A DNA stretch of 64,000 nucleotides, from assembly GCA_032691205.1 (NCBI GenBank), contig GCA_032691205.1_4541.1; one strand, 5' to 3'. This stretch comes from a phage. The position numbers and the translations under genes were made by a program. Below are positions 14,636 through 33,465 of the stretch, one piece after another; position 1 is the stretch's first letter, and each line of letters begins with the position of its first letter. The notes below the pieces were generated by a model that was given only the letters and a program-made list of their open reading frames with translations, ran no database searches and was not told the DNA's origin.

Positions 14636-14908
14636 TCACCCCCAAGAAATATTTATATATCTTACAATGTTTGCACTGTCTAAAGCCATGTTTGCACCAC
14701 ACCCACGCTCGCGCCAGTAACTAACAATACCTTCACAGATACTCTCTTGTATCTTCTTATCACTTGGCATTTCTAGTATAAGACTTGGGTTGTGGATGTT
14801 TATGTTATAATATCCTTCCTCTGCGGCTTGAGCTACCAATTTACTTACTTTTTCAAAGTACGGGGAATTAGTGGCATCTGCCATTGTTTTTAAGGTTTGT
14901 CTATCCAT
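14636..14908 (-). CDS. hypothetical protein (90 aa)
   Basis: ORF track. Confidence 0.55.
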   Translation of the reverse strand: MDRQTLKTMADATNSPYFEKVSKLVAQAAEEGYYNINIHNPSLILEMPSDKKIQESICEGIVSYWRERGCGANMALDSANIVRYINISWG

Positions 14909-15273
14909 TATTCTGCCTCATCATAGAAGAAATCCAACTCTTGTTCCAGTTGTTTAACTCGATCCTTAACCCACTGTACACGTTTTTCATTAAACATGCA
15001 ACGTTTTTCCTTACACTCTTGCTCAAAAGATTTTGCTGTGTTAAACGGGAAAGTTGTATCTAAACCAGCATTTTCAAAACTGGCTAATTGCATACCATAA
15101 ACAGAATATGCTAAAGAATGATCGGCTCGAAATTCATCACTTATATACATACGTAGACCTCGGCATAAGCCAACATCAGCGTAACCACTTTCTCGTGGAA
15201 AGAGACGGAGGTGTTCTAACCAATTATTATAGAAATCTAAAAGAATCCTCTTACACTTCAAATCAATTGTCAT
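14908..15273 (-). CDS. paralog family A member
   Basis: Track ORF trimmed to ATG 15273 after AAGGAG; GLC, PFN, WVKDR motifs. Confidence 0.6.
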   Translation of the reverse strand: MTIDLKCKRILLDFYNNWLEHLRLFPRESGYADVGLCRGLRMYISDEFRADHSLAYSVYGMQLASFENAGLDTTFPFNTAKSFEQECKEKRCMFNEKRVQWVKDRVKQLEQELDFFYDEAE

Positions 15274-15673
15274 AAAAAGTTTCTCCTTCATCGAACAAGT
15301 TGGCAAGATTGTTCACCGCAATTTGGGTGGAAAGAAGACAACTGTTTGCAGACACATAAGCACGGGCTATTTTGTAAACATAAGCTTTCGTATTGCAATC
15401 TTCTAAAATCGGAAGACTTTCATCGATAGCATCTATAACACTAAACATCACATCTAAAACTTTAATGGTGAGTGTTGTATTTGTATCTTCGTAACCTTTT
15501 TCAATCCGACCTGAATAGAAAGTATAGTCCTCAACAGTTCGTCGTTTAAATTGGCGCATAAAATCAGAACCATCTGTAGCAGAATTGAACAAATTTTCAA
15601 AAAATACCTCCCATCCGGCAAAAAGGGCTGACAGCATGATTAAGTGATCTACAGATTCATTTTCTTGTTTCAT
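15263..15673 (-). CDS. hypothetical protein (136 aa)
   Basis: ORF track. Confidence 0.55.
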   Translation of the reverse strand: MKQENESVDHLIMLSALFAGWEVFFENLFNSATDGSDFMRQFKRRTVEDYTFYSGRIEKGYEDTNTTLTIKVLDVMFSVIDAIDESLPILEDCNTKAYVYKIARAYVSANSCLLSTQIAVNNLANLFDEGETFYDN

Positions 15674-17280: not shown

Positions 17281-17835
17281 TTAGTTCCAACTAATAATGA
17301 TGTGTTTGATAATCCCAAAAATACTGTGCTCTGCGGTTGCCAATGTTACATCCAAACCTTTTGCACGTAGTATTGTAGCTACAACATTTGCCCCTCTTTT
17401 CTGTTCACTTATCTGTTCATAAGAAGAAGGGTTATTGCACAAACCAAAACTGGAAGGTTCAAAGTATTTTTCAAACTTCCCTTGTTCCGCACAATCTTCA
17501 ATCTCTAATAGAACGGCGTCTACCATTTCAGTAAAATGGGAATTTGCTTGCAGTGCTTTATTACGCAGTTTATCACGTAAACTTCCCGTAGATTCTTCCT
17601 GCTCTTCTGTCTGTCCCTCTTCACAGAAAGGATGAAGTTCAGCCCAGTCCCAAGCATCTCCTTCTAAAGCAAATGGAGTGTTGTAATTGAAGAAAGTGCA
17701 GCGCGGATATTCCCCGTTGAAAGAATCTTTCAGCAGAATATATTTCTTACCATTTGCATGGAAGAGTTCTCCTTTGATAACCTTACCTACAAGGATATCG
17801 CTGTTAGTGGAACGGGTGCAAATAAACTTTTTCAT
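17281..17835 (-). CDS. hypothetical protein (184 aa)
   Basis: ORF track. Confidence 0.55.
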   Translation of the reverse strand: MKKFICTRSTNSDILVGKVIKGELFHANGKKYILLKDSFNGEYPRCTFFNYNTPFALEGDAWDWAELHPFCEEGQTEEQEESTGSLRDKLRNKALQANSHFTEMVDAVLLEIEDCAEQGKFEKYFEPSSFGLCNNPSSYEQISEQKRGANVVATILRAKGLDVTLATAEHSIFGIIKHIIISWN

Positions 17836-18119: not shown

Positions 18120-18343
18120 TCTTCCATCTCGAACCATTCAGGGAACACTTTGTGGAAGACACGTGTTGTTTCTAAGAGAAATTCCAACTCTTTTTCCAAG
18201 TCTGGGTTCCAACCATTTATTTTAACACGGATTGCCAATGTACTTGCACGGCGACTCAATTCTTGACAGATTGGATCACGCAGAACTATTGAATCATAAA
18301 ACTGACAAACAGCTTCAAGTTCATACCAGTTATAATCCGACAT
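18116..18343 (-). CDS. hypothetical protein (75 aa)
   Basis: ORF track. Confidence 0.5.
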   Translation of the reverse strand: MSDYNWYELEAVCQFYDSIVLRDPICQELSRRASTLAIRVKINGWNPDLEKELEFLLETTRVFHKVFPEWFEMEE

Positions 18344-18669
18344 TATTCATCCTCCTCTGCAATACGATCTCTTACCCAATTAATTCTGTCCACGTTCAGG
18401 TGACAGGCATCTGTATCTGACTCTAAGACATATGCATCGTAGTTCTCATTGAAAGGGAGTCCTTGATTCAACCCTTTATGGTAAAACTGTGCGTGCATTT
18501 CATCTGACAAGGTTGTTATAATGGGGTTGTAATTACCTCTGTGCACATAATCGAACAAGTTGGCACACAAACCACAATCCCGCCGAAAAGGTTTACCATC
18601 AGGAGCACCAACATCAATCCATGCTAGATAAATTTTATAAAACTCCATCAAATCTTTACTTGTTTTCAT
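18343..18669 (-). CDS. paralog family A member
   Basis: ORF track; FY..W, GLC, PFN, WVRDR motifs. Confidence 0.6.
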   Translation of the reverse strand: MKTSKDLMEFYKIYLAWIDVGAPDGKPFRRDCGLCANLFDYVHRGNYNPIITTLSDEMHAQFYHKGLNQGLPFNENYDAYVLESDTDACHLNVDRINWVRDRIAEEDE

Positions 18670-21152: not shown

Positions 21153-21374
21153 CTACTCCGCAAGAACATTCACTTCGTCAGAGAAGAATACGTAATCACA
21201 ACCTTCCCAAACATCTTCTTCAAACCACTCCCATCCCTCAACTTTGGACATTTCTTCTATCGTAACAAAGAATGTTGTCATATCATCGCTAACAAGATGT
21301 GCTTCAACAACAAAAGGAATCTGAACATTCTCAAAACCAACATAACCCAATACATCACAAACTCTAATTTTCAT
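21153..21374 (-). CDS. paralog family B member (EWFxE...DYVFF)
   Basis: ORF track; similar to 25461-25691. Confidence 0.5.
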   Translation of the reverse strand: MKIRVCDVLGYVGFENVQIPFVVEAHLVSDDMTTFFVTIEEMSKVEGWEWFEEDVWEGCDYVFFSDEVNVLAE

Positions 21375-21578: not shown

Positions 21579-21779
21579 TTATTTATCTTGCTTGTATCTT
21601 ACAAGGCGATCACACTCCAGGTCAAGAAATTTCTCCGCATTTCGTTCATGTTTGAGCACAATACATTGTTCTTTCCAGTCTGTAGCTCTTTGCTGCGCTG
21701 CTCCTGGGTCAAAATCCCAAAGCCATGCCGCGAAAAGAACAACCATAACAATTACCAAGAAACTAAACACTATTGGCAT
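21579..21779 (-). CDS. small membrane protein (66 aa)
   Basis: Track ORF trimmed to ATG 21779 after AGGAGG; one hydrophobic helix. Confidence 0.5.
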   Translation of the reverse strand: MPIVFSFLVIVMVVLFAAWLWDFDPGAAQQRATDWKEQCIVLKHERNAEKFLDLECDRLVRYKQDK

Positions 21780-22084
21780 TGCACATCCTCCTGTGTAGCA
21801 TGATCTTTTACCCATTTTATACGGGCAGCATTCAAATGCAATAGCCCGTTTCTTTGTGCAAAATCATATTTAAACCAGTCTCCGTCATCAAACGGGTATT
21901 CTTCAGACAACCCTGCTTCGCGGAATTGCATTTGCATTTCATAATTTAGATCATCATAGCCACCAGACCAAAGATAGAGGCAACTGCACAAACCTTTATC
22001 ATGCCAGAAAGGATTATTATCTGGAGCACCAGCTAACAGCCAATTATGATAGGCTTGATAAAATTCTTTAAGTTCCTCTGACAT
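21770..22084 (-). CDS. paralog family A member
   Basis: ORF track; FY..W, GLC, PF, WVKD motifs. Confidence 0.6.
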   Translation of the reverse strand: MSEELKEFYQAYHNWLLAGAPDNNPFWHDKGLCSCLYLWSGGYDDLNYEMQMQFREAGLSEEYPFDDGDWFKYDFAQRNGLLHLNAARIKWVKDHATQEDVQCQ

Positions 22085-22282
22085 TTAGCCTCCCGTATGC
22101 AGTGTTGAAAGATACACAGCAAAAGCATTCTCGGCTGTTTTCACCTCCTCTTCAAGATCTTCACGCTCTGCTGGCGTTAGCGCATTTCGCACAGCAGCGT
22201 CTGCTTCTCGGATTTTTCTTACTAAACGTGAAACATCTTTCAGTTGTTGAAAAGTAGCCATAATCTTTCTCCTTTTAGTCAA
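22085..22282 (-). CDS. hypothetical protein (65 aa)
   Basis: ORF track. Confidence 0.5.
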   Translation of the reverse strand: MTKRRKIMATFQQLKDVSRLVRKIREADAAVRNALTPAEREDLEEEVKTAENAFAVYLSTLHTGG

Positions 22283-22508
22283 ACCAGTTGTATTCAGAAG
22301 GGTAACGAGCGTAGTTTGGCTTGTACCCCAGCCTTTTCATCTTAACAGACATACGAGTGAAGCCAAAGGTTGTTTTGCCCTTAGACATAAACTTCTTCCC
22401 ACTCTTCATTGGCTTCTTAGGATTTTTGATCGTCTGGTGTAACGCTCGCGCAAGCCACAAAGTGTATGCACTCGGTACCTGATTAACTTTCATCTTGTTA
22501 CCTTTCAT
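22275..22508 (-). CDS. basic hypothetical protein (77 aa)
   Basis: Track ORF trimmed to ATG 22508 after AAGGAGGT. Confidence 0.5.
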   Translation of the reverse strand: MKGNKMKVNQVPSAYTLWLARALHQTIKNPKKPMKSGKKFMSKGKTTFGFTRMSVKMKRLGYKPNYARYPSEYNWFD

Positions 22509-22518
22509 CGATACCTCC

Positions 22519-22746
22519 TTAGTGAACTTCGTGCCAAGTGCCAAACTCTTCTGCTGATACTTTAGGAACGGCATGAGTTTCTCGGTATTTGTTTAAAGCT
22601 TTCTCAACGGCTGTAGCAAAAATATCTTGAGATTTGTGAGGCATATAATAAGCGCGTCCCATATATGCCAGTGCATCACGTAATTCTTCTGCTTGCTCTT
22701 GTGTAACTGTCAATGTGATAGTAACCATTATTTCACCTCCGACCAA
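22519..22746 (-). CDS. hypothetical protein (75 aa)
   Basis: ORF track. Confidence 0.5.
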   Translation of the reverse strand: MVGGEIMVTITLTVTQEQAEELRDALAYMGRAYYMPHKSQDIFATAVEKALNKYRETHAVPKVSAEEFGTWHEVH

Positions 22747-23027
22747 TCAATAGTGATCCACTCGTATGCCCCGTTCAAATCCATTTCTTTATAAACAATA
22801 AGCCCACGCTCACGAAGAATTGCTACTGCTTCATCCATCCATTTCACCTGATTGTAGATTTCCCCTGGGTGGGTAGGGGAATTATCCAGACCAAAATCAG
22901 ATGGCGTGAAATTTCTTGAAGAGTTTCCCGCTCGTGCTTCAGCAAAACATGTCTCGATCACTTCTTCAACAGGGAAGTTGAAGGAAGCTTCTTTTGCAAT
23001 ACGGCGTAACTGTTCGGTCAGATTCAT
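22728..23027 (-). CDS. hypothetical protein (99 aa)
   Basis: ORF track. Confidence 0.55.
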   Translation of the reverse strand: MNLTEQLRRIAKEASFNFPVEEVIETCFAEARAGNSSRNFTPSDFGLDNSPTHPGEIYNQVKWMDEAVAILRERGLIVYKEMDLNGAYEWITIDWSEVK

Positions 23028-23054: not shown

Positions 23055-23492
23055 TTATAACAGATCTAATGCTTTCAACTCTTCTTTCAATGATTCAGGC
23101 AGGTCACATTCAATGTCAATCAGAGATAACAAGTGACCAACAATGCCTTCCAGATGTTGATACTCACTATAACTTATAAATTCAGAATTGTAAACAGAAA
23201 CATCCTTAGTTTCTTTCACAACTTCCCCCGCAGACACGCACATAAAAAAGTTACGCTCTCCGCGAGCTAACAATATCTCCCAACTCCTGAACGGATACTG
23301 TCCAGCTTCAATAATATCCCCGCTGTCCAATAAAGTCAATGAGCAAACAGACCCTGATTCACTAACATCTTCGACGCGGAAACAAGACCCTTCAATCAAA
23401 GCTGCCATTTTGAAATTTTCATCAGAGATCATAGAGAAAGCTTCACATGCAGCTTTGCTTTTGAAACAGTAAACAGCATTAACTTTGAACAT
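23055..23492 (-). CDS. paralog family C member (MFKV..VY.F N-terminus)
   Basis: ORF track; tandem with two related ORFs. Confidence 0.6.
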   Translation of the reverse strand: MFKVNAVYCFKSKAACEAFSMISDENFKMAALIEGSCFRVEDVSESGSVCSLTLLDSGDIIEAGQYPFRSWEILLARGERNFFMCVSAGEVVKETKDVSVYNSEFISYSEYQHLEGIVGHLLSLIDIECDLPESLKEELKALDLL

Positions 23493-23501
23493 AATAGCTC
23501 C

Positions 23502-24287
23502 TTATTTTATTACCGCAGTAGGCTCAATACTAACAACACCAATACGCTCATAGATCTCAACAGTAGAAATTGGGTATTCTTCCTTCATCTTTTTTGCTTC
23601 TGTGGCGATCTCTTCGTAAGAATGTGACACCAGTTGGACATTCATACCTTTAACAATAGCATAGTGTTTAAAATTCTCTGCGGGTTCCTCTTGTTTAGGC
23701 TCAACAGCATCTTTAATATTTTTAAAGTAAGGGTTATCGCTTTTGATTAGCAGTGCACAAGCTTCCTTGAACCAGCCTTCACCTGCTACATGATTTGTAT
23801 TACATACAAGCCTACGGATTGCTGTTACATCTTGTCCAACCATCTTTGTGATCACGAAAGGATCATCGCCAATAAGATCGGAAATTTTTCGGTTTACATT
23901 GTTTGTCGTTTGTCCGCCGTCAATATAATTGGCGAAAAGCTTACGATCTTGTTCACTTGCAAACTTATAGACACCACCTTCTACAAAGACACAGCCTCCT
24001 GTAGGAGAATCTTCATAATCTTCAGGAGTATGTTCTTCAAAACGAGTATAATCCATACAACTTACAAGCTTATAACCTTCAGGGAAAAGCCCAGAACCAG
24101 CTTCGATGATTTTATTTGTGTCTAATACCTTCACCTTAGATACAGAACCAAGAAAATCAACATCCAAAACTTTAAACTTGCTATCTTGAATGCAACCTAC
24201 AAAGAAAGCGTTACCAATACTAGCTTTACCAAAATTCTTTTTGGTATCTTCCGATTTGAAATTATAAACAAAACCTACTTTAAACAT
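23502..24287 (-). CDS. paralog family C member (261 aa)
   Basis: ORF track; N- and C-terminal similarity to 24300-24758. Confidence 0.6.
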   Translation of the reverse strand: MFKVGFVYNFKSEDTKKNFGKASIGNAFFVGCIQDSKFKVLDVDFLGSVSKVKVLDTNKIIEAGSGLFPEGYKLVSCMDYTRFEEHTPEDYEDSPTGGCVFVEGGVYKFASEQDRKLFANYIDGGQTTNNVNRKISDLIGDDPFVITKMVGQDVTAIRRLVCNTNHVAGEGWFKEACALLIKSDNPYFKNIKDAVEPKQEEPAENFKHYAIVKGMNVQLVSHSYEEIATEAKKMKEEYPISTVEIYERIGVVSIEPTAVIK

Positions 24288-24299
24288 AACATTCTCCTT

Positions 24300-24758
24300 T
24301 TAAACAAAAGATACACCGATGGTAGCAACAACCATACGTTTATAAACTTCAACCTCTTCTGTAGGATTAGCCATTTTATGCTCTGCGGCTTCTTTCAAAG
24401 CTTCTTCATAACTTTCAAATCCAGAAATACAGGTGTCATCAGTCATTACAACATACCACTCTTCTTTTGTTGTATCAACAGGTTCTTCTTGGGGTTTTCC
24501 ACGACCACCACGAACACCACCGTCAACAAAATAATCTATATGAGCAGAATTGATTATGTAACGATCCCCTTCACCAGCAGTGATAATACCATCTCTCATA
24601 CCTATTACAACCATTGACAAGATATTACCATTTGCATCAGTGCTCAACACCTCGAAAAAATTCTCTCCAATGATAGCCGCAATACTGCTATCAAAGGTAG
24701 AATATAGTCGCATATAATCCTCATCCTGGAAACGGTAGACATGACCTTCTTTAAACAT
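24300..24758 (-). CDS. paralog family C member (152 aa)
   Basis: ORF track. Confidence 0.6.
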   Translation of the reverse strand: MFKEGHVYRFQDEDYMRLYSTFDSSIAAIIGENFFEVLSTDANGNILSMVVIGMRDGIITAGEGDRYIINSAHIDYFVDGGVRGGRGKPQEEPVDTTKEEWYVVMTDDTCISGFESYEEALKEAAEHKMANPTEEVEVYKRMVVATIGVSFV

Positions 24759-25212
24759 TGCTCTCTCCTCCTAACTCATCATACCATTTCAAAGCGTCTT
24801 TTGGAAGCATACCAAAATCTTCTTTTAGTTCTTTTTCAATCTCTTCTTGCATTTCCATCAGCGTTTTCAGTTGACGGACTTTTTTGTGCATAGCCACATT
24901 CCTTTCATTAAGGTTTGTCACTACATTATTTGTACGACTCGGTGGAAATGACAAAGGTTTCACGGGAAGATAATCTTCGATATTATCTAGTGCGTTACGA
25001 AAATTATGATCCAAGAAACGCACATCTACACGATTGTAATCAGCAGCTACAACAGTGAACACTTTAAACGGCACATTGGATAAAGTATGTTGCACACAGA
25101 CAGTACCCATATTACCTTCAATTTTACTGGTAACTTCCAGCAAACCTGTATGAGCACTAACATAATCGTGAACACATTGCACATAAGCTGCCAGTATAGT
25201 GAATTGTCTCAT
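24751..25212 (-). CDS. hypothetical protein (153 aa)
   Basis: ORF track. Confidence 0.55.
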   Translation of the reverse strand: MRQFTILAAYVQCVHDYVSAHTGLLEVTSKIEGNMGTVCVQHTLSNVPFKVFTVVAADYNRVDVRFLDHNFRNALDNIEDYLPVKPLSFPPSRTNNVVTNLNERNVAMHKKVRQLKTLMEMQEEIEKELKEDFGMLPKDALKWYDELGGESNV

Positions 25213-25460: not shown

Positions 25461-25691
25461 TTAATAGACAATTTCATATTCGTGAGGAAAGAAAACATAA
25501 TCTTCCCCTTCTCGTGCATCTATCTCGTCCCAAAACCATTCCTGCACTTCCATCATCTTCGAGAATCGCACATGAGCAAGCCCACTGTATTCCACAGTAG
25601 CTTCCAACACAAGTGGAAATTTTGCATGTGCCAATCCTTTATAACCACCATCATTCTCAATACGAATTTTCATGCGTTTCATGTTATGCAT
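25461..25691 (-). CDS. paralog family B member
   Basis: ORF track; EWFWDE..DYVFF. Confidence 0.5.
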   Translation of the reverse strand: MHNMKRMKIRIENDGGYKGLAHAKFPLVLEATVEYSGLAHVRFSKMMEVQEWFWDEIDAREGEDYVFFPHEYEIVY

Positions 25692-25942: not shown

Positions 25943-26311
25943 TTATTCAATGCAAGCATTATTTGCATCTTCAATCCGATCTTTCACCCACTGAAGACGT
26001 AACGTGTTGGTATGACACGCCAAGTTTATACACTCTGAAAGGTAATCCATGCAATCCACATTGAACGGAAGATTGTAGTCCAGCCCTGCACATGTAAATT
26101 GTTTCCTCATTTCATATTTCAAACGGTCCAACAAATGATCACGCCATTTTCTATCTTCTTCTCTAGGTGTATCACCAACAAAATCATCTACATAATCTAC
26201 CAGACAACCACATAAGCCACTCGTTGTGCGATTCATTGCAGGATAGTTGGCAATCCATGCTTTATAGAAGCGAAGCAATGTTGCACTGCTCAACGGAATA
26301 CTATTTGTCAT
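25943..26311 (-). CDS. paralog family A member
   Basis: Track ORF trimmed to ATG 26311 after AAGGAGAG; GLC, PFN, WVKDR. Confidence 0.6.
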   Translation of the reverse strand: MTNSIPLSSATLLRFYKAWIANYPAMNRTTSGLCGCLVDYVDDFVGDTPREEDRKWRDHLLDRLKYEMRKQFTCAGLDYNLPFNVDCMDYLSECINLACHTNTLRLQWVKDRIEDANNACIE

Positions 26312-26645
26312 CTTTCTCTCCTTCATAATCTTGAATTCTATCTAGCACCCATTGTATACGATGTTTGTTTTTATGGCAAATATGTTTTTTATGTTCAAAG
26401 GTGTATTCCTCATAACCACCTTCATTAAACGGGAAATTGTAATCCAATCCTGCACCAATAAACTGTGATTTCATCTCCTGTTGTAGACGAGGTAACAGTT
26501 CATCAGGATATGTTCCCTCTACATACTTAATCAAACATATGCACAAGCCACTCGTTGTGTGACCTTCTACCTCACCAGCAAGCCAAGCTTTGTAAAACTT
26601 CATTAGACGTAAACTACTTAACGGAACATTTTTACTCTCTTGCAT
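26301..26645 (-). CDS. paralog family A member
   Basis: ORF track; FYKAW, GLC, PFN, WVLDR. Confidence 0.6.
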   Translation of the reverse strand: MQESKNVPLSSLRLMKFYKAWLAGEVEGHTTSGLCICLIKYVEGTYPDELLPRLQQEMKSQFIGAGLDYNFPFNEGGYEEYTFEHKKHICHKNKHRIQWVLDRIQDYEGEKDDK

Positions 26646-26985
26646 GACAATCTCCTCTCATCGTTAGCCATCTTTCATGGCAATCATCAATCACCAACAT
26701 CATACGATCAATCTTAAGGAATTACAATCGAATTATCATAGGGGATTCCTATCAATTATCCCATATATACCGATTATTTTTGACACCCCCACTCTTGTAT
26801 AAAAAGTAACCCAAAATATCTACGGGGAGAGATTATTTCGACACACCCTGTTTCATGGCAATCATGGCAAGAATATCTAATAGAATCAATATGATATGGC
26901 AAAAATCATGGCGCATACGTAAGAAGTGCTTAACGCGAATTTTCGGGCCGTCAGGTCCACGCAGCGACAATTCCCAAATATCATG

Positions 26986-27008
26986 CGAATGAGAATAATT
27001 ATCATTCG
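26986..27008. promoter_or_regulatory. Fur-box-like palindrome (candidate operator)
   Basis: cgaatgagaataattatcattcg, near-palindromic. Confidence 0.3.
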
Positions 27009-27338
27009 TATTCAATGACTTATGCAAGGCTCATGCCAACATAGCGACAAGGTGGGCCACCTGATTATAAATCACACAAACACTTATTTATCAATGGCTT
27101 GGCAACTTCATCATATGACGGAACAATGTCAACTGATCCCGCTCATGACAAGCAGACTATTATTTATATGAGAATGATTATTATTTAAACGTTTATTAAC
27201 ATAAAAACTAAAATAAATCAAGATTATTCTGATTTTATTTACGTTTAAGAGAAGGTGCTCAACATATCGCGTAGCGATAGTATTCGCCCCCAAAATTATT
27301 GACTTTTATTCTATTATGTGCATAGTGTGCAATGTATC

Positions 27339-27357
27339 GGAATGATGATAATCATCC
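27339..27357. promoter_or_regulatory. Fur-box-like palindrome (candidate operator)
   Basis: ggaatgatgataatcatcc. Confidence 0.3.
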
Positions 27358-27400
27358 TCCCATTGCCCCCATAATTATTGCCATGCTAATTGTTTCCTTA

Positions 27401-27423
27401 CATAATCATTACAATGATTATTG
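27401..27423. promoter_or_regulatory. inverted repeat ATAATCATT/AATGATTAT
   Basis: cataatcattacaatgattattg. Confidence 0.3.
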
Positions 27424-27901
27424 TTATTGCGCTAATGTTATGATCTTGGTAATTACATATAATGCTAATAATAAGCCAGCGCAATAAGTGTAAGCGTCAT
27501 TACGCTTGCAATTATTGCAAGCTACGCAGTAACAAGAAATAACCGTCACCGATGGTTATGATTGTTGGGGTGTAGTTGGCTTATTATTAGCTCGCTATGT
27601 GTCCGGCATAGCGTGCTAATGATGACTCTGTGAATGATTCGTTTTGTAATGATTTCATTCAGGCACTATTTTGCTAATAGTTATTATTTTAATGGTTTCG
27701 TTTGTTATTGTTCGTTAGTTGGTTGTTTTGTCGTGTTATCGTTATCTTGCTTAGTATTCATCATGGTTCGATTGTTTGTCGTTATCAATCATCTTGCTAT
27801 TATTCCTTTGATTATGATTAGTTTGCTTATTGTTTTATGTTGTTTGTTGGTTAGTTGTTGCGAACTATTATCAACATTATAATTATGCGCTTATATTGCA
27901 T

Positions 27902-27937
27902 AGATAATCATGGGTAGATGATAATGGTTATCATTGC
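27902..27937. promoter_or_regulatory. tandem Fur-box-like sites
   Basis: agataatcatgggtagatgataatggttatcattgc. Confidence 0.3.
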
Positions 27938-28142
27938 ACTAGAAAGGAGGTAAAAGGGTGTTTTTGATGGTTTGTTGTTGGTTGTTGATCGATTTTAACC
28001 GCTCTAAATGGCTCTCTAACAGCCTGTAACCCTGGGAGGTATGGTTATTCGTTTGCTGGTTGATTAGCTCGATACCGCAATTTATTCAGTTTTGTTCTGT
28101 GTCGGTTTTCCATAGGCGGAATCTATCAACATTGTTCGGGGC

Positions 28143-28169
28143 AAAAAGAAAGGGCGCTCGGTGCGCCCC
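28143..28169 (-). terminator. rho-independent terminator (minus strand)
   Basis: gggcgctcggtgcgccc hairpin; U-rich tract on minus strand. Confidence 0.6.
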
Positions 28170-28184
28170 TTGTTTTGTTGTCGA

Positions 28185-28604
28185 TTATAACGCTTCATAG
28201 ATTGAGTAGATCCGGTTTGCCAGGTCATTACGAAAGCGGAATTTTTCATCACGTTTAATCATCAGATCCTTAAAACCGTATTCTTTCAATGCTTCATTAA
28301 CTTTATGGCGGCAAACGTTCATATTATCCTGCGCGTCACCAATAAACTTATTACTGTGATGCATTGCTTTGATCTCTTCCTCTAATACCAGGGCAACTAC
28401 ACGGATCGGATCAAGCTGATATGCGGTAACATCCATGCGGCATTGTAAACGGCTTTTAACATCGTTTACCGGATACACTGCAACCTCTTCCCCGTCAACG
28501 TTCACGATAACCAATTTACCATCAATTTCGAAGCCTTTGGCGGCGCTACCGTGACAAAAAGCGTTATCGAAGGAGTAAGCTGGATTATTTGATTTAATGT
28601 TCAT
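28185..28604 (-). CDS. hypothetical protein (139 aa)
   Basis: ORF track; RBS AAGGA. Confidence 0.6.
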   Translation of the reverse strand: MNIKSNNPAYSFDNAFCHGSAAKGFEIDGKLVIVNVDGEEVAVYPVNDVKSRLQCRMDVTAYQLDPIRVVALVLEEEIKAMHHSNKFIGDAQDNMNVCRHKVNEALKEYGFKDLMIKRDEKFRFRNDLANRIYSIYEAL

Positions 28605-28639
28605 GGTGTTGTCCTTTGTTTCGTTTCGTTGTTTGCTGC

Positions 28640-28672
28640 CAGTGAGTTAAATATAATATAACGCCGATCCCC
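28640..28672 (-). promoter_or_regulatory. promoter with -35 inside a hairpin (TTGACA ... TATTAT)
   Basis: Minus-strand read cccctaTTGACAgggg...TATTAT upstream of 28185-28604. Confidence 0.45.
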
Positions 28673-28715
28673 TGTCAATAGGGGATAGCGCATTATTTAC
28701 ATTTCTTTACGTTAA

Positions 28716-28732
28716 AGGGCGCTTAGTGCGCC
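28716..28732 (-). terminator. GC hairpin downstream of 28746 gene (possible terminator)
   Basis: gggcgcttagtgcgccc. Confidence 0.4.
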
Positions 28733-28745
28733 CCCTTGTATAATC

Positions 28746-29114
28746 TTACTTTGTGCGGTTGTGAACGTTATCGCGTTCAACCATCAGGGCAAGGCGGATC
28801 AGTTGATCAGTTGTATCGCGTAAATTGTCGGGCCATGTTTTACTGTTCCAGCTATCCAGGTTTGATTGTATATAGGTTTCAATGGCTTGATCCATACTAT
28901 CAAACAAGTTTTCCTCCAAGCTCTCGGCTGTTTCACACTGGAAAGCATTAGCGACACTGTTAATCAATAAGCAAGCCAGTAAATCAGCATTACGCCAATT
29001 TTTACGGATAGTTTCATCTGTCAGATAACAAACGAGATTAACCTTTGCGCCAGTGGTTGACGTTGCGATCACTTCTTGTGCTTTTTCAAGTGCTTTAATT
29101 GCTGATTTGCTCAT
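28746..29114 (-). CDS. hypothetical protein (122 aa)
   Basis: Track ORF trimmed to ATG 29114 (RBS AGAGGA) so that it begins downstream of the promoter cassette. Confidence 0.55.
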   Translation of the reverse strand: MSKSAIKALEKAQEVIATSTTGAKVNLVCYLTDETIRKNWRNADLLACLLINSVANAFQCETAESLEENLFDSMDQAIETYIQSNLDSWNSKTWPDNLRDTTDQLIRLALMVERDNVHNRTK

Positions 29115-29131
29115 TTTATTTTCCTCTTTGT

Positions 29132-29192
29132 GGGCTTGCTGTATTGCTCGCCCTACGTGATAAATAATAATGTAAGCGTGATCCGGTGTCAA
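29132..29192 (-). promoter_or_regulatory. PeSL-like cassette (degenerate hairpin + TTGACA promoter)
   Basis: -35 tgtcaa at 29187-29192 (plus-strand spelling); gccctacgtg box. Confidence 0.45.
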
Positions 29193-29321
29193 TAGGTAGG
29201 ATTGTAAAGATTTGATAGTTTATCTCTTTGATGTTTTGTTGTTTGATAGGTATTAGCTATCGATATATAGCGGGATCTTCCGGTGATTATCTTCCCCTGC
29301 TCCCAGGTGCCGCCCGTTCAA

Positions 29322-29355
29322 TAAGTATAACAAAAAACAGGACAAAAACAAGCCC
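29322..29355 (-). terminator. rho-independent terminator (minus strand)
   Basis: aacaggg...ccctgtt hairpin; T-rich after it on minus strand. Confidence 0.45.
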
Positions 29356-29367
29356 TGTTTATTTATC

Positions 29368-29502
29368 TTAAAACCAGGTGCCAACCGTTTCCAATAGGTC
29401 GCTGACTACTAGGACAACATTGATCAGCACATGTTCAACCATGAAGGGGATAAGCGCCAGCGTTGCTACTACGATCCCCATTGTGATGATTACCTTTCTC
29501 AT
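29368..29502 (-). CDS. small membrane peptide (44 aa), not in ORF track
   Basis: Own translation MRKVIITMGIVVATLALIPF...; ATGA overlap with upstream gene. Confidence 0.4.
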   Translation of the reverse strand: MRKVIITMGIVVATLALIPFMVEHVLINVVLVVSDLLETVGTWF

Positions 29503-29789
29503 TGTTGGCGGTTTACGTAAGCTTTACCGTTTACGGTCATCGGTATGGCCTCAAGGTCTGGATCTCCCTTAAGGTCGCGTGCAAGCTCACCGCAGCGGGT
29601 ACCCTCGAATCCGTAGTACTCTGTTGTGCCGTCCTGGAAAGTTTTAGCGGCAAGGCATAGGCGATAATTAACGCCGATCCGGTTTATTGCGTTGATATCG
29701 GTTAGCGCGATGGATTCTGGCAACTCATTAGCCAGTACAGGCGCGTTAATACCAACAACCAGGGCAACTACTGCGATCATCTTTTTCAT
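29499..29789 (-). CDS. small secreted protein with signal peptide (96 aa)
   Basis: N-terminus MKKMIAVVALVVGINAPVLA. Confidence 0.55.
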   Translation of the reverse strand: MKKMIAVVALVVGINAPVLANELPESIALTDINAINRIGVNYRLCLAAKTFQDGTTEYYGFEGTRCGELARDLKGDPDLEAIPMTVNGKAYVNRQQ

Positions 29790-29843
29790 GCGTCTATCCT
29801 CTTCCTATTGCGTTTAATGGGGTGTTACCGCCCCGCTTATGGT

Positions 29844-30080
29844 TTATTGATTGATGTTATGATGAAAGTTATTTTCTTCAATAGCTTTTAAAATAAAAGC
29901 CGTGATCGCTTTCGTGTCTACTTGTTCGAACGTATCAGAATAAGCCCAATAATAATCATCCCCTACTTTCGGCGGGTAAACCTGGACAAGGAGATCGCCA
30001 CCTGGTTGATCTATAAGCTCAACATGCAAGCCGGATGATTCAGCGGTTTTAACGGCGTTTAATACTGTTGCAATACTCAT
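29844..30080 (-). CDS. hypothetical protein (78 aa)
   Basis: ORF track; GC hairpin in 5' leader. Confidence 0.55.
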   Translation of the reverse strand: MSIATVLNAVKTAESSGLHVELIDQPGGDLLVQVYPPKVGDDYYWAYSDTFEQVDTKAITAFILKAIEENNFHHNINQ

Positions 30081-30124
30081 AATCTTTTCCTTTCTGATGT
30101 GGGGCGTTGCCGCCCCTTTGTTGA

Positions 30125-30424
30125 TTAGATCGCTGTTTCCAGTAGTTCGGCTAACGTCTTACCGCCTGATAGTTGGTCTAACGTTTGCTCTTCTGGCAAG
30201 AAATTAGCTGATATTAAACCAACTTGATTTCCTTTGTGCCAGTTAGCCTGGCGGATGATTCCATCCTTTAAAGATTTTACCGCCATTGTGCAACCGTCGC
30301 CAAATGATTCATTTTTATGGTCCATCACTTCATAAGCGCCCAGTTTGCTGCTGTTAGGCACCATTAACGCGAACACATCACCAACAACCAGTTTTTCTAC
30401 GGTAACAATAGCGATAGTTTCCAT
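30125..30424 (-). CDS. hypothetical protein (99 aa)
   Basis: ORF track; RBS GAGGAAAG. Confidence 0.55.
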   Translation of the reverse strand: METIAIVTVEKLVVGDVFALMVPNSSKLGAYEVMDHKNESFGDGCTMAVKSLKDGIIRQANWHKGNQVGLISANFLPEEQTLDQLSGGKTLAELLETAI

Positions 30425-30442
30425 TTTACTTTCCTCATTATC

Positions 30443-30498
30443 GGCGGCACCATTGCCGCCCTACGTGGTAAATATTAGCACACTGCCGATCTGTGTCA
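30443..30498 (-). promoter_or_regulatory. PeSL-like cassette: TTGACA N17 TAATAT promoter + stem-loop ggcggcaccattgccgcc
   Basis: Hairpin 30443-30460; -35 at 30493-30498. Confidence 0.6.
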
Positions 30499-30505
30499 AT
30501 ACTTT

Positions 30506-30892
30506 TTATTCAATATAAATCAAATTATCTTCACCAATGTAAGCCGACACGTTCGGCATAAACTTAGCTGCATTTGTTAGGCGGTTGGCTGTGTTAGTGG
30601 TGTATATTTCAGGGCGATCCCAAAAGCCTACGCCGTGACTGTTACGGGTAAAATGTAAATCATTCCCGATCTGGTTGGCTGTTGCGCCGTCGCTCATTGC
30701 CTCAGAGATAGCGGCAAGATTAGCATTAATAAAGGCTGTTACATCCTGGGCGATCCGTTCGTCCGCGCTAGGAGAAAAATCATAATCAGTCATGTCATCT
30801 ATAAAATTACCTTCATGATCCCTTGCGGATTCAGCAAAAATAAAGGCTTCTTTATAACCGTTGATGATTTCAATAATGATTTCTGTTTTCAT
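30506..30892 (-). CDS. hypothetical protein (128 aa)
   Basis: ORF track. Confidence 0.6.
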   Translation of the reverse strand: MKTEIIIEIINGYKEAFIFAESARDHEGNFIDDMTDYDFSPSADERIAQDVTAFINANLAAISEAMSDGATANQIGNDLHFTRNSHGVGFWDRPEIYTTNTANRLTNAAKFMPNVSAYIGEDNLIYIE

Positions 30893-31104
30893 GCTGTACG
30901 CTCGACAATAATAATAGTTTGCGGGATCTCATTTTCTACTACTAACAAGGCTTTTTTCTGCGTAATAGATATTTTAACACGTTGTAACGTGGCGGTAAAG
31001 TCTTTCATCTCATTATGCGCGGATTTAGTGCAATGCCAGATCTCAGGCTTACCTATTTGCAAGCCGCGTAAAAATTCTGTTTTACCTGTCTTATTCGTGA
31101 TCAT
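30889..31104 (-). CDS. hypothetical protein (71 aa)
   Basis: Track ORF (TTG start) trimmed to ATG 31104 after AAGGTG. Confidence 0.5.
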   Translation of the reverse strand: MITNKTGKTEFLRGLQIGKPEIWHCTKSAHNEMKDFTATLQRVKISITQKKALLVVENEIPQTIIIVERTA

Positions 31105-31114
31105 TTGATTCACC

Positions 31115-31219
31115 TTAACCAATACCGTGGGAAGATAGGATCATATTAGCCATAGTTGCAACCAATCCAACCGATAACGCCAGGCCAACTATTACAACCG
31201 TGAAAATTTTCTCTAACAT
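31115..31219 (-). CDS. small hydrophobic peptide (34 aa), not in ORF track
   Basis: Own translation MLEKIFTVVIVGLALSVGLVATMANMILSSHGIG. Confidence 0.35.
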   Translation of the reverse strand: MLEKIFTVVIVGLALSVGLVATMANMILSSHGIG

Positions 31220-31237
31220 GATTCTACCCTCATTAAT

Positions 31238-31299
31238 GGGCGTTGCCTTATTGCCCCGCCCTACGAAATACATTCTATCAGATAACAAATTATCGTCAA
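31238..31299 (-). promoter_or_regulatory. PeSL-like cassette (variant hairpin gggcgttgcc..gccccgccc)
   Basis: -35 cgtcaa at 31294-31299. Confidence 0.5.
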
Positions 31300-31442
31300 G
31301 ATTTATTTTTTACTTCCCAAACGGAAAATTCGCTGCCTGTTGGGATCATCTTTTTAATCTTGTTTGCTGCCGCTACCAGGTCAACGGCTTGCACTGTAAT
31401 AATATAACCAATTGTCGAGGCTGTTGCGTTGAAAGTTTTCAT
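31296..31442 (-). CDS. small protein (48 aa), not in ORF track
   Basis: Own translation MKTFNATASTIGYIITVQAVDL...; stop lies within the downstream -35. Confidence 0.4.
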   Translation of the reverse strand: MKTFNATASTIGYIITVQAVDLVAAANKIKKMIPTGSEFSVWEVKNKS

Positions 31443-31486
31443 TATATTATCCTTTAATACAGGCGGGATTAATCCCGCCTTATTAA

Positions 31487-31657
31487 TTACTCTTCATCGT
31501 CGCCGTTATAGTATTCAATGCCGTTTTCATCGGTTACAGTGATGTTAACGCCACCGATAGCAACACGATCACGGGCAAACGTCATAGCTTCATTTAAATC
31601 TTCAGACCAAAAAATATTGTGACCTTTGCGCGATACATAAAACATAGTCGGGATCAT
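31487..31657 (-). CDS. hypothetical protein (56 aa)
   Basis: Track ORF trimmed to ATG 31657 because the cassette hairpin lies inside the track ORF. Confidence 0.45.
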   Translation of the reverse strand: MIPTMFYVSRKGHNIFWSEDLNEAMTFARDRVAIGGVNITVTDENGIEYYNGDDEE

Positions 31658-31680
31658 GATTTGTTTCTCTTCTGTTGTGA

Positions 31681-31741
31681 GCGGTGGACCATTCCGCCGC
31701 CCTATGTGGTAAACTTTACTACGTTGTTTGCGTGCTGTCAA
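31681..31741 (-). promoter_or_regulatory. PeSL-like cassette (hairpin gcggtggaccattccgccgc)
   Basis: -35 tgtcaa at 31736-31741. Confidence 0.55.
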
Positions 31742-31742
31742 A

Positions 31743-32078
31743 TTATTTTTTAATGTTTTGCCCTACAAAATTAATCATTTCCTTAAGCTGTCTCTCTGTC
31801 ATGATCGTACCTGGTAACTCTTCTTTAATTTCTTCCGGTAAATAAATATTACCGCGCCAGGTTAACAAACAACCGTTTTGATCTTCGCAGATAGAATAGG
31901 AAAACATCCACTCGCAATCATTTTCAAGCTCCCAAAAACACAAAAAGTCTTCTTTCCCTAAGTTTTCAACGGTTAAACATAATCCGCGACGTGCTGCATA
32001 ATTAGTTAGGCTTTTTGTGATTTTCATGATTTTTCTCTCTTCTTGTGAGCGGCACCATTGCCGCCCTACAAGATACAT
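31743..32078 (-). CDS. hypothetical protein (111 aa)
   Basis: ORF track. Confidence 0.55.
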   Translation of the reverse strand: MYLVGRQWCRSQEERKIMKITKSLTNYAARRGLCLTVENLGKEDFLCFWELENDCEWMFSYSICEDQNGCLLTWRGNIYLPEEIKEELPGTIMTERQLKEMINFVGQNIKK

Positions 32079-32104
32079 ATTACCAGACTAAGCCGACTTG
32101 TCAA
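32049..32104 (-). promoter_or_regulatory. PeSL-like cassette (hairpin gcggcaccattgccgcc)
   Basis: -35 tgtcaa at 32099-32104. Confidence 0.55.
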
Positions 32105-32105
32105 A

Positions 32106-32216
32106 CTATTTTTTCTTTTTCTTTGCTTCCAACCGTCTAAGGTTACGGCTTGACTTATTGCGCAAGGCGCTTAGATCGTCGTACCCTTTCCATGCTTGCA
32201 TATCTTTCGGATTCAT
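32106..32216 (-). CDS. small basic protein (36 aa), not in ORF track
   Basis: Own translation MNPKDMQAWKGYDDLSALRNKSSRNLRRLEAKKKKK; RBS AAGGGG. Confidence 0.35.
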   Translation of the reverse strand: MNPKDMQAWKGYDDLSALRNKSSRNLRRLEAKKKKK

Positions 32217-32225
32217 GTTATCCCC

Positions 32226-32387
32226 TTACTTGTTAGCCGGATTATATGCCAGGACCGCGCCGCTTGCTTTCACGCTTTCCGCTTCATAGTTGCGCAGATC
32301 GTTTTCTGTAAGGTTGAGCGCGATCACTTCCTCGATCTCAACGTCAGCGGCAAGGGCGATCTCTTTGATAATGTCTGTTGTTTTCAT
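32226..32387 (-). CDS. small protein (53 aa), not in ORF track
   Basis: Own translation MKTTDIIKEIALAADVEIEEVIALNL... Confidence 0.4.
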   Translation of the reverse strand: MKTTDIIKEIALAADVEIEEVIALNLTENDLRNYEAESVKASGAVLAYNPANK

Positions 32388-32397
32388 AGTACGCACC

Positions 32398-32517
32398 TTA
32401 TAAGATGATTGATAAGATAGTGATAACGAAAGCGATTATACTGATGGCAAATGTCATCTTTTTACCTTCGGATACTGCCGGATTCTCTACCGTGTATTCT
32501 ACTGTGTACTTGCTCAT
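32398..32517 (-). CDS. small membrane peptide (39 aa), not in ORF track
   Basis: Own translation MSKYTVEYTVENPAVSEGKKMTFAISIIAFVITILSIIL. Confidence 0.4.
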   Translation of the reverse strand: MSKYTVEYTVENPAVSEGKKMTFAISIIAFVITILSIIL

Positions 32518-32537
32518 CGTGTAATCCTCTCGTTTGC

Positions 32538-32597
32538 TTTGGGAACTATTCCCGCCGCCCTATGAATTAAATATACACTATCTCAAAATGATTGCAA
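32538..32597 (-). promoter_or_regulatory. PeSL-like cassette (hairpin gggaactattccc; -35 TTGCAA)
   Basis: -35 at 32592-32597. Confidence 0.5.
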
Positions 32598-32613
32598 GCC
32601 TTTTTCTAAATTT

Positions 32614-32928
32614 TTATGCAGTAAACAAACCATCATTTACAACGGCGGCGATGATCTCCCGCGCCATTGATTCAGGGAAAGGGGCGCTATAGTCCTGGCT
32701 TGTCTCATCGGTATCAGTGATCCAATGATAAGCTAACGAGTAAAAGCCTTTACTAACTGTTTTCAGTGAGATGACGATCACTCGGTCAAGCTTATTGGTG
32801 AATGTTGCCGTTAATGTGTTACCCTCCTGCGTCATGTTGGACAAGTAAGCGGGATCATTAATCAGGGAAAACATTAGCACGGTGTTAGCTTTACTCATGA
32901 TTGCATCCTCAAAGGGGCGCGGCACCAT
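32614..32928 (-). CDS. hypothetical protein (104 aa)
   Basis: ORF track. Confidence 0.55.
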   Translation of the reverse strand: MVPRPFEDAIMSKANTVLMFSLINDPAYLSNMTQEGNTLTATFTNKLDRVIVISLKTVSKGFYSLAYHWITDTDETSQDYSAPFPESMAREIIAAVVNDGLFTA

Positions 32929-32974
32929 TGCCGCCCTACACGATAACTATAACACAATGTAAAACAGGATCAAC
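32917..32974 (-). promoter_or_regulatory. PeSL-like cassette (hairpin gcggcaccattgccgcc; -35 TTGATC)
   Basis: Hairpin about 32919-32935. Confidence 0.45.
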
Positions 32975-33176: not shown

Positions 33177-33196
33177 AATATTTACCTTTTTGTATG

Positions 33197-33256: not shown

Positions 33257-33262
33257 CCACTT

Positions 33263-33448: not shown

Positions 33449-33465
33449 CTTTGTTTATCCTCTAC

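What the first reader, a model, noticed from the sequence alone, without database searches (positions are those of the whole stretch)
23055..24758. Tandem triplet of paralogs starting MFK.G.VY.F
Three consecutive genes begin with near-identical N-termini (MFKVNAVYCFKS, MFKVGFVYNFKS, MFKEGHVYRFQD). The two longer ones also share C-terminal similarity. This looks like local duplication and diversification, with the middle copy carrying a central insertion.
Basis: seen in the sequence. Interest (0 to 1): 0.45.

Follow-up and report, generated by a model that had tools for sequence, protein, structure and literature searches.

The report
Tandem GoF-like early phage genes
Three neighbouring genes of this phAPEC8-like E. 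coli phage are old, diverged relatives of the phage T4 early protein GoF; the middle one carries two copies of the shared N-terminal barrel domain rather than an insertion. This extends a recently described phage protein family, but what the proteins do is still unknown.

Summary
Three consecutive minus-strand genes, A (24300-24758, 152 aa), B (23502-24287, 261 aa) and C (23055-23492, 145 aa), start MFKxGxVYxF. Their similarity runs far beyond ten residues: BLASTP E-values are 6e-11, 2e-7 and 0.002.

The window is a Phapecoctavirus, 98.9% identical to phAPEC8_ev052. The shared part is an ~85-aa SH3-like beta-barrel homologous to the N-terminal domain of T4 GoF (ComC-alpha). Kim et al. 2025 described that family, GoF/MotB.1/Frd.2, as "LSm-like".

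- **A:** barrel, disordered linker, small beta-beta-alpha-beta C-domain.
- **B:** barrel, barrel, then the same C-domain. This is not a central insertion.
- **C:** barrel plus a different tail.

The paralogs are old (22-44% identity). A B-C pair occurs in a divergent phage, and all three genes show dN/dS of 0.10-0.18.

Copy number varies from 1 to 4 among relatives. At least two variants have breakpoints in short shared sequences: phAPEC8_0024 is an A/B hybrid, and ESCO5 lacks B exactly.

Function is inferred only. The proteins are most likely non-enzymatic early binding proteins that touch RNA metabolism or Rho-linked processes. Verdict: a new member of a known kind, of modest interest.

The parts
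24300..24758 (-). Gene A, 152 aa. GoF-like protein: barrel, linker, C-domain. Its start ATG overlaps the stop of the upstream gene (ATGTTTAA).
   Evidence: ORF. Matches phrog_3710 at E 4.9e-34. AF2 model has mean pLDDT 83.8. dN/dS 0.18. Present in 60 phage records.
24507..24758 (-). A residues 1-84: SH3-like N-terminal barrel with the element order beta, alpha, alpha, beta, beta, beta, alpha, beta.
24465..24506 (-). A residues 85-98: disordered Gly/acidic linker. It contains the QEEP codons (24481-24491) that mark the crossover in the phAPEC8_0024 hybrid.
   Evidence: pLDDT below 50 for residues 85-98. DNA alignment.
24303..24464 (-). A residues 99-152: small beta-beta-alpha-beta C-terminal domain with a conserved P-x3-V-E-[IV]-[YF] motif.
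23502..24287 (-). Gene B, 261 aa. Two-barrel GoF-like protein: N1, N2, C-domain.
   Evidence: ORF. Four PHROG profiles each match B in two stretches. AF2 model has mean pLDDT 81.7. dN/dS 0.14. The B-specific DNA is in only 17 phage records.
24015..24287 (-). B residues 1-91: first barrel (N1). It is the part closest to the barrel of C and to T4 GoF.
   Evidence: 44% identity to C over 64 aa. T4 GoF vs B residues 2-95 gives E 3e-8. Profile hit on residues 1-84 at E 7.7e-15.
23703..23993 (-). B residues 99-195: second barrel (N2), with an ~8-10-aa insertion between its two helices.
   Evidence: Profile hit on residues 101-190 at E 2.7e-10. Same element order as N1, with a low-pLDDT loop at residues 125-127. 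P0124 carries the same insertion.
23505..23666 (-). B residues 208-261: C-terminal beta-beta-alpha-beta domain of the same type as in A.
   Evidence: Part of the A-B alignment. Structural elements E209-213, E216-221, H224-237 and E243-247.
23683..23693 (-). CAAGAGGAACC (QEEP) microhomology in the linker of B. It pairs with A 24481-24491.
   Evidence: phAPEC8_0024 follows A up to this 11-nt stretch and follows B after it.
23055..23492 (-). Gene C, 145 aa. GoF-like protein: barrel (residues 1-86, 23235-23492) plus a different, acidic C-terminal region (23058-23234) that was not modelled.
   Evidence: ORF. Matches phrog_22975 at E 3.4e-100 and phrog_622 (the family of T4 GoF) at E 7.8e-10. dN/dS 0.10. 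Present in 62 phage records. A C-like ortholog at 40% identity lies next to the B-like gene in L009.
23480..23503 (-). B stop, RBS and C start (TAAGGAGCTATTATGTTCAAAGT). Together with the equivalent A-B junction (24275-24299) it marks the breakpoints of the exact loss of B in ESCO5.
   Evidence: Junction alignment. ESCO5 annotation.

Best explanation
**What it is (shown).** A, B and C are real protein-coding genes of a phAPEC8-like myovirus. All three belong to the phage GoF (ComC-alpha)/MotB.1/Frd.2 family.

Each protein starts at Met1 with an ~85-residue SH3-like barrel, which the 2025 literature calls 'LSm-like'. The barrel has five strands, with two helices inserted after strand 1. The shared MFKxGxVYxF motif is strand 1 plus core aromatic residues.

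- **A:** barrel, disordered acidic linker, small beta-beta-alpha-beta C-domain.
- **B:** two barrels in tandem, then the same C-domain.
- **C:** one barrel plus an unrelated acidic tail.

**History (shown).** The copies are old paralogs kept by purifying selection. The array is remodelled between close relatives. In two cases the breakpoints lie in short sequences shared between paralogs: the RBS/MFKV start and the QEEP linker. Related phages therefore carry 1 to 4 genes and include a hybrid gene.

**How it works (inferred, about 0.35 confidence for this part).** They are probably non-enzymatic proteins made early in infection. The barrels would serve as binding modules for RNA or for a host protein of the transcription-termination or RNA-decay machinery. 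The C-domain would mediate self-association or a second contact. The different tails and barrel numbers would give the paralogs different targets or valency.

The overall confidence of 0.8 refers to identity, architecture and history.
For: **Identity of the phage**
- The region is 98.9% identical to Escherichia phage phAPEC8_ev052.
- Some GenBank records already label these genes 'goF mRNA metabolism modulator'.

**Homology to T4 GoF**
- BLASTP of GoF against B gives E 3e-8, and against C gives E 2e-4.
- PHROG matches are reciprocal. GoF hits phrog_3710, the family of A and B, at E 8e-12. B, C and A hit phrog_622, the family of GoF, at E 1.2e-12, 7.8e-10 and 0.009.
- hhalign of the family profile against T4 MotB.1 gives E 6.9e-5 over 80 columns, probability 63%.

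**Fold**
- AF2 models have mean pLDDT 83.8 (A) and 81.7 (B). The element order is the same in all barrels and the linkers are disordered.
- Foldseek against BFVD finds 66 hits at E <= 1e-3. All those listed are uncharacterized proteins, mostly from T4-like and related large phages.

**Two barrels in B**
- Shown: **Age and selection**
- Domain identities are 22-44%.
- A B-like gene (27% identity, same architecture) followed by a C-like gene (40%) occurs in a divergent contig.
- dN/dS is 0.10-0.18.

**Remodelling of the array**
- phi92 has 1 copy. phAPEC8 has 2, including an A/B hybrid. ESCO5 has 2, with B lost exactly. The window has 3. ECO340P1 and ESCO37 have 4.
- Census of phage records: C in 62, A in 60, D in 24, B in 17.
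- Tandem-barrel proteins recur: 13 of the 75 representative clusters have 2-3 matched stretches.

**Function lead**
- T4 GoF is an abundant, non-essential early protein. Its D25Y allele stabilises gene 41 mRNA and suppresses the restriction of T4 by rho mutants (PMC12152347; PMC2988021).
Against: No function is shown for any wild-type family member. Wild-type GoF and MotB.1 had little effect in the reporter assay.

A and C are strongly acidic (pI 4.4, net charge -13 to -15). That does not favour direct RNA binding.

A does not match GoF by pairwise BLAST, and N1 does not match N2. These links rest on profiles, intermediates and predicted structure.

Early expression is inferred from T4 and from the position of phi92 gp003, 1.3 kb from the left terminal repeat. 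It was not measured. The promoter scan showed no enrichment.
Confidence: 0.8

Rival explanations
1. A recent local tandem triplication was followed by diversification, and the middle copy was enlarged by a central insertion.
For: The three genes are adjacent, co-oriented and start with almost the same ten residues. The array does change copy number among close relatives.
Against: - Domain identities are only 22-44%.
- A B-like and a C-like gene are found at 27% and 40% identity, in the same order, in a divergent phage.
- The N-terminal motif is conserved family-wide, including in T4-type proteins.
- The extra length of B is a complete second domain at the N-terminus, not an insert.
Confidence: 0.04
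2. The proteins are genuine Sm/LSm-type RNA chaperones, phage analogues of Hfq. They would bind and stabilise phage mRNAs directly, and the paralogs would cover different RNA targets.
Against: - Wild-type GoF shows no such activity.
- There is no Pfam LSM or Hfq hit.
- The helices lie between strands 1 and 2, not at the N-terminus as in Hfq (Hfq topology as described).
- AlphaFold3 gave no confident ring oligomers for GoF.
- A and C carry net charges of -15 and -13.
- FeoA, KOW and Tudor neighbours score as well as or better than LSm.
Confidence: 0.15
3. The array is an accessory counter-defence or host-range module. The barrels would bind host defence or takeover targets. Gain and loss of paralogs (B and D present in only a minority of genomes) would track the hosts encountered.
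For: - Presence and absence vary among >95% identical genomes: B in 17, D in 24, C in 62 records.
- The locus lies in a block of small genes that contains several other paralog families.
- The genes are non-essential in T4.
- Hybrids and domain-swapped forms exist: phAPEC8_0024 and P0016.
Against: - No similarity to any characterised anti-defence protein was found. Dedicated anti-defence libraries were not available.
- A and C are near-universal in the genus.
- Selection is purifying, not diversifying.
Confidence: 0.2
4. The C-domain is a ClpS-like adaptor module that connects the barrels to the host ClpAP N-degron pathway.
Against: - Only about half of ClpS is covered.
- Sequence identity is 13-16%.
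- There is no Pfam hit and no PDB sequence hit.
- A beta-beta-alpha-beta unit is a very common substructure.
Confidence: 0.03

Closest known systems
Phage T4 GoF (ComC-alpha), with the GoF/MotB.1/Frd.2 'LSm-like fold' family of Kim et al. 2025 (PMC12152347)
   Same: - The N-terminal ~85-aa barrel is homologous: BLASTP E 3e-8 for B, plus reciprocal PHROG hits.
- The barrel is joined to a variable C-terminal part by a flexible acidic linker.
- The proteins are small and acidic.
- The genes lie among small genes near the genome end, and several paralogs occur per genome.
- FeoA-type SH3-topology proteins are the nearest solved folds for both.
   Different: - The host phage belongs to Stephanstirmvirinae, not Tevenvirinae; the paper does not mention that group.
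- The paralogs are directly adjacent.
- B has two barrels in one chain.
- A and B carry a conserved beta-beta-alpha-beta C-domain, longer than the short strand-plus-helix tail suggested by the T4 GoF sequence. Homology between the two tails is not established.
FeoA and other SH3-like small barrels (KOW, Tudor, Sm/LSm)
   Different: No sequence similarity and no Pfam hit. Two helices are inserted after strand 1. No metal ligands or Sm motifs were identified. The scores are too low to infer a shared ligand.
Tandem SH3-like repeat proteins (Mind bomb Mib repeat, KIN17 tandem SH3-like domain)
   Same: These are the best Foldseek PDB matches to the whole B model, because they also have two barrels in tandem.
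   Different: E-values of 0.035-0.4 are not significant. This is a resemblance in architecture only.

Membership tests
GoF/MotB.1/Frd.2 phage family (Kim et al. 2025) | N-terminal domain homologous in sequence to the GoF N-terminal domain | tested here: met
   - GoF vs B gives E 3e-8; GoF vs C gives E 2e-4.
- GoF hits phrog_3710 at E 8e-12.
- B, C and A hit phrog_622 at E 1.2e-12, 7.8e-10 and 0.009.
- A shows no direct BLAST hit to GoF; it is linked through profiles and through phi92 gp3.
- hhalign to MotB.1 gives E 6.9e-5, probability 63%.
GoF/MotB.1/Frd.2 phage family (Kim et al. 2025) | Predicted bent five-stranded antiparallel barrel, with FeoA-type SH3 folds as the nearest solved structures | tested here: met
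GoF/MotB.1/Frd.2 phage family (Kim et al. 2025) | Barrel linked to a variable C-terminal domain by a flexible linker | tested here: met
   pLDDT is below 50 for A residues 85-98 and for B residues 92-98 and 199-201. Three C-terminal types occur within the locus.
GoF/MotB.1/Frd.2 phage family (Kim et al. 2025) | Early, abundant expression; not essential in the laboratory | not testable with these tools
   Context only. The phi92 homolog gp003 lies 1.3 kb from the left terminal repeat. B and D are dispensable in nature.
GoF/MotB.1/Frd.2 phage family (Kim et al. 2025) | Effect on mRNA stability or suppression of rho-mutant restriction (known only for GoF D25Y and G84R) | not testable with these tools
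   The positions equivalent to D25 and G84 are not conserved in A, B or C (alignment).
Sm/LSm (Hfq-type) RNA chaperones | Sm1/Sm2 sequence motifs, an N-terminal helix before the five strands, and ring oligomers | tested here: not met
FeoA (Pfam FeoA domain) | Match to the Pfam model | tested here: not met
   No Pfam hit. There is fold resemblance only.
ClpS | Full ClpS alpha/beta core with the N-degron pocket; match to the Pfam model | tested here: not met

The most novel reading that the evidence does not exclude
The Stephanstirmvirinae proteins would form a distinct GoF subfamily. Its conserved beta-beta-alpha-beta C-domain and one to three tandem barrels would make multivalent adaptors that tie a host RNA-metabolism or termination factor (for example Rho, RNA polymerase or the degradosome) to a second partner. 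The microhomology-driven gain, loss and fusion of cassettes (1-4 genes, hybrids) would be an adaptive way of retuning that takeover function to different hosts or defences.
Probability: 0.15. Interest if true: 0.55.

Novelty: new member of a known kind. Interest (0 to 1): 0.3.

Why it matters
GoF has been a genetic puzzle in T4 since the rho/nusD suppressor studies. Its family was recognised only in 2025 and was described as a Tevenvirinae feature.

This locus shows three things:
- The family extends to phAPEC8- and phi92-like phages.
- Natural variants exist with one or two barrels here, and up to three in other members.
- A second conserved domain exists at the C-terminus.

The variants include precise deletions, an A/B hybrid and domain swaps. 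They form a ready-made series for asking which domain does what. The practical value is better annotation and a comparative handle on an uncharacterised class of early proteins. It is not a new mechanism.

Tried and rejected
- **Pfam and NCBIfam scans of A, B and C:** no hits.
- **PDB sequence search with the family profile:** only designed proteins, at E >= 0.012.
- **Foldseek against the PDB with B:** nothing significant.
- **afdb50 fold search:** the library was not available.
- **Direct BLASTP of B N1 against N2:** no alignment. The internal repeat therefore rests on profiles and structure. I checked it with a profile that excluded B.
- **Neighbour-joining tree of the barrels**, to decide whether B arose by gene fusion or by internal duplication: unresolved. 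Only C plus its L009 ortholog (79%) and two other small clades have support.
- **Relation of the neighbouring 'MKIR...DYVFF' family to the barrel:** rejected; hhalign probability 0.15%.
- **P0125**, an apparent chimera of that family with the C-terminal part of B: it comes from a single 1.3-kb contig at 0.75x coverage and may be an assembly artefact.
- **Promoter and terminator scan:** counts at background level.
- **First word-indexed homolog search with B alone:** only 2 clusters. An alignment query and the exhaustive search were needed.
- **Literature search for Stephanstirmvirinae early-gene expression:** nothing usable.

Full report
**1. The observation**

The window region 23055-24758 holds three consecutive minus-strand ORFs:
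- A: 24300-24758, 152 aa, MFKEGHVYRFQD...
- B: 23502-24287, 261 aa, MFKVGFVYNFKS...
- C: 23055-23492, 145 aa, MFKVNAVYCFKS...

Each has a Shine-Dalgarno sequence at the usual distance. The start of A overlaps the stop of the upstream gene (ATGTTTAA). The RBS of C overlaps the stop of B (TAAGGAG).

Pairwise BLASTP results:
- C vs B residues 1-64: 44% identity, E 6e-11.
- A vs B residues 100-254, over the whole length of A: E 2e-7. A vs B residues 1-66: E 6e-6.
- A vs C: E 0.002.

A domain profile built from family members other than B hits only these three of the 418 ORFs of at least 40 aa in the window. The next best ORF scores E 0.25.

**2. Where the window comes from**

The region is 98.9% identical to Escherichia phage phAPEC8_ev052. 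It matches 82 phage records, mostly Phapecoctavirus (Stephanstirmvirinae). In most records the genes are 'hypothetical'. Two records label some of them 'goF mRNA metabolism modulator'.

**3. What the proteins are**

Pfam and NCBIfam give nothing. PHROGs places A and B in phrog_3710 and C in phrog_22975. Weaker hits go to phrog_622 and to families named for goF.

T4 GoF, fetched from NC_000866, matches B at E 3e-8 and C at E 2e-4. It does not match A directly. The link is reciprocal at profile level. GoF is the type of phrog_622 (E 4.6e-38) and also hits phrog_3710 at E 8e-12. The family profile also aligns with T4 MotB.1 over 80 columns (hhalign E 6.9e-5, probability 63%).

Kim et al. [quoted passage not shown] Its members have an N-terminal five-stranded barrel, which the authors call LSm-like and find closest to FeoA-type SH3 folds, joined by a flexible linker to variable C-terminal domains. 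The paper does not mention phAPEC8- or phi92-like phages or multi-barrel proteins.

**4. Architecture**

AlphaFold2 on a 25-row alignment gave A a mean pLDDT of 83.8:
- Residues 1-84 form a barrel with the element order beta, alpha, alpha, beta, beta, beta, alpha, beta.
- Residues 85-98 are disordered.
- Residues 99-145 form a beta-beta-alpha-beta unit.

B has mean pLDDT 81.7 and shows the barrel pattern twice, at residues 1-91 and 99-195. A linker follows, then the same C-domain at residues 208-250.

The second barrel is supported independently of the model:
- The profile built without B finds full-length domains at residues 1-84 (E 7.7e-15) and 101-190 (E 2.7e-10).
- Four PHROG profiles hit B in two stretches.
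- A, the D paralog and phi92 gp3 each match both halves.

N1 and N2 do not match each other by BLASTP, so the repeat is old. The 'central insertion' reading is therefore wrong. B is a barrel fused in front of a complete A-like unit. The only insertion is ~8-10 residues between the helices of N2, and the diverged B-like protein P0124 shares it.

The MFKxGxVYxF motif is strand 1 with core aromatics (F2, Y8, F10). It is conserved in distant members, which explains the near-identical N-termini.

**5. Fold neighbours**

Foldseek against the PDB gives nothing significant. The top hits are tandem SH3-like repeats and FeoA. The PDB sequence search finds nothing relevant.

Foldseek against BFVD gives 66 hits at E <= 1e-3. 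All those listed are uncharacterized proteins, mostly from T4-like and related large phages, and several are 220-320 aa long.

The barrel is therefore a generic SH3-like small barrel. The fold does not identify the ligand.

**6. Family size and recurrence of tandem barrels**

An exhaustive profile search of 1.84 billion representative proteins finds only 75 clusters at E <= 1e-3. Thirteen of them have two or three matched stretches and are 220-354 aa long. The barrels combine with at least four kinds of C-terminal part: the A-type alpha/beta domain, the GoF-type tail, the C-type tail and coiled-coil-like tails.

**7. Age, selection and dynamics of the array**

Barrel identities between paralogs are 22-36% in a common alignment.

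A divergent phage contig (L009) carries a B-like gene (27% identity, same N1-N2-C architecture). It is followed immediately by a C-like gene (40% identity) and then by a homolog of window 22275-22574 (83% identity). The B-C pair therefore predates the divergence of these lineages.

Among 5-7 close genomes, dN/dS is 0.18 for A, 0.14 for B and 0.10 for C. The sample is small and uses pairwise Nei-Gojobori estimates.

Copy number still varies among close relatives:

| Phage | Genes in the array |
|---|---|
| phi92 | 1 (gp003, 1.3 kb from the left terminal repeat) |
| phAPEC8 | 2 |
| ESCO5 | 2 (A and C) |
| This window | 3 (A, B, C) |
| ECO340P1, ESCO37 | 4 (an extra A-type paralog D plus a 64-aa ORF upstream of A) |

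phAPEC8_0024 is a hybrid. It follows A up to an 11-nt stretch, CAAGARGAACC (QEEP in the linker), and follows B after it. In ESCO5, B is missing exactly, with the breakpoint inside TTATGTTYAAAGT at the RBS and start codon. P0016 joins the barrel of D to a different C-domain.

Census of phage records at megablast level: C in 62, A in 60 (54 full length), D in 24, and the B-specific part in 17. A and C are near-core in the genus. B and D are accessory.

Whether B itself arose by fusion of neighbouring paralogs or by internal duplication could not be resolved. N1 is closest to the barrel of C and N2 plus the C-domain is closest to A-type proteins. That pattern fits a fusion of the kind seen in phAPEC8_0024.

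**8. How it most likely works**

Shown:
- The genes are real and under purifying selection.
- They encode GoF-family barrels with the stated architectures.
- The array is remodelled at short shared sequences.

Inferred:
- The proteins are made early.
- They act as non-enzymatic binding proteins.

The only functional data in the family come from T4. GoF is abundant (~20,000 copies per cell), early and non-essential. D25Y and G84R suppress the failure of T4 to grow on rho(nusD) mutants. D25Y stabilises the gene 41 leader RNA post-transcriptionally and independently of Hfq. Wild-type GoF and MotB.1 show little effect.

A and C are very acidic (pI 4.4, net charge -13 to -15). B is less so (pI 5.3). 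This, together with the SH3/KOW/Tudor-type neighbours, makes a protein-binding adaptor role at least as likely as direct RNA binding.

I put about 0.9 on family membership and architecture. I put about 0.35 on the general mechanism: early binding modules that modulate host or phage RNA metabolism or Rho-linked processes, with the C-domain mediating self-association or a second contact. The positions equivalent to D25 and G84 are not conserved here.

**9. Verdict**

The age of the duplication and the nature of the middle gene were misread. The locus is a new member set of a recently described family, and it adds three things: a wider host-phage range, tandem-barrel forms, and a conserved C-domain. 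It also provides a clear natural series of deletion, fusion and swap variants. It does not reveal a new mechanism. Interest is modest at 0.3.

Noticed in passing
window 26301-26645, 25943-26326, 21770-22084, 18343-18669, 14908-15306, 13630-14016 (all minus strand): A six-member paralog family of 104-132-aa proteins, scattered on both sides of the GoF-like genes (BLASTP E 4e-30 to 4e-5). They share an 'SGLC.CL' Cys motif, seen by eye. The divergent contig L009 has at least seven copies. Function unknown.
   Followed up: partly
window 25461-25691 and 21153-21374 (minus strand): A second paralog pair, 76 and 73 aa, 'MKIR...W.W...EG.DYVFF', E 1e-10. It is not related to the GoF barrel: hhalign probability 0.15%.
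   Followed up: yes
window 22728-23027 vs 17281-17835 (minus strand): The 99-aa gene just downstream of C resembles the C-terminal half of a 184-aa protein 5 kb away: 32% identity, E 6e-8.
   Followed up: no
window 49549-49896 and 49896-50201 (plus strand): Two adjacent ORFs are 44% identical over 102 aa (E 2e-17). This is another tandem paralog pair elsewhere in the window.
   Followed up: no
window 24751-25212 (minus strand), upstream neighbour of A: This 153-aa gene exists as two alleles, only 55% identical in protein sequence, among otherwise >95% identical phages. The last ~30 residues are conserved. The allele does not track the presence of B or D. It has faint, sub-threshold similarity to the C-terminus of Mfd/TRCF in both Pfam (E 0.06) and TIGR00580 (E 0.063), matching the phi92 gp001 note.
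   Followed up: partly
window 26650-28170: An ORF-poor, AT-rich stretch of ~1.5 kb, unannotated in phAPEC8_ev052. It holds four copies of an 18-nt motif, ATGAGAATGATTATYATT; from memory this resembles a Fur-box-like palindrome. It also holds several inverted repeats and a bidirectional terminator-like hairpin at 28149-28171.
   Followed up: no
L011 (ENA ERZ15185033 contig, 1301 bp), protein P0125: An apparent chimeric ORF. The N-terminal part matches the 76-aa 'MKIR' family and the C-terminal part matches B from 'EGWF' onward. It is a single contig at 0.75x coverage, so it may be an assembly artefact.
   Followed up: partly
window 28000-38500: GC is higher (0.41-0.43) and AT skew is strongly negative compared with the rest of the window. 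Short similar ORF fragments repeat on the plus strand, suggesting repeated DNA or repeat-containing minus-strand genes. ARAGORN finds no tRNA genes anywhere in the window.
   Followed up: no
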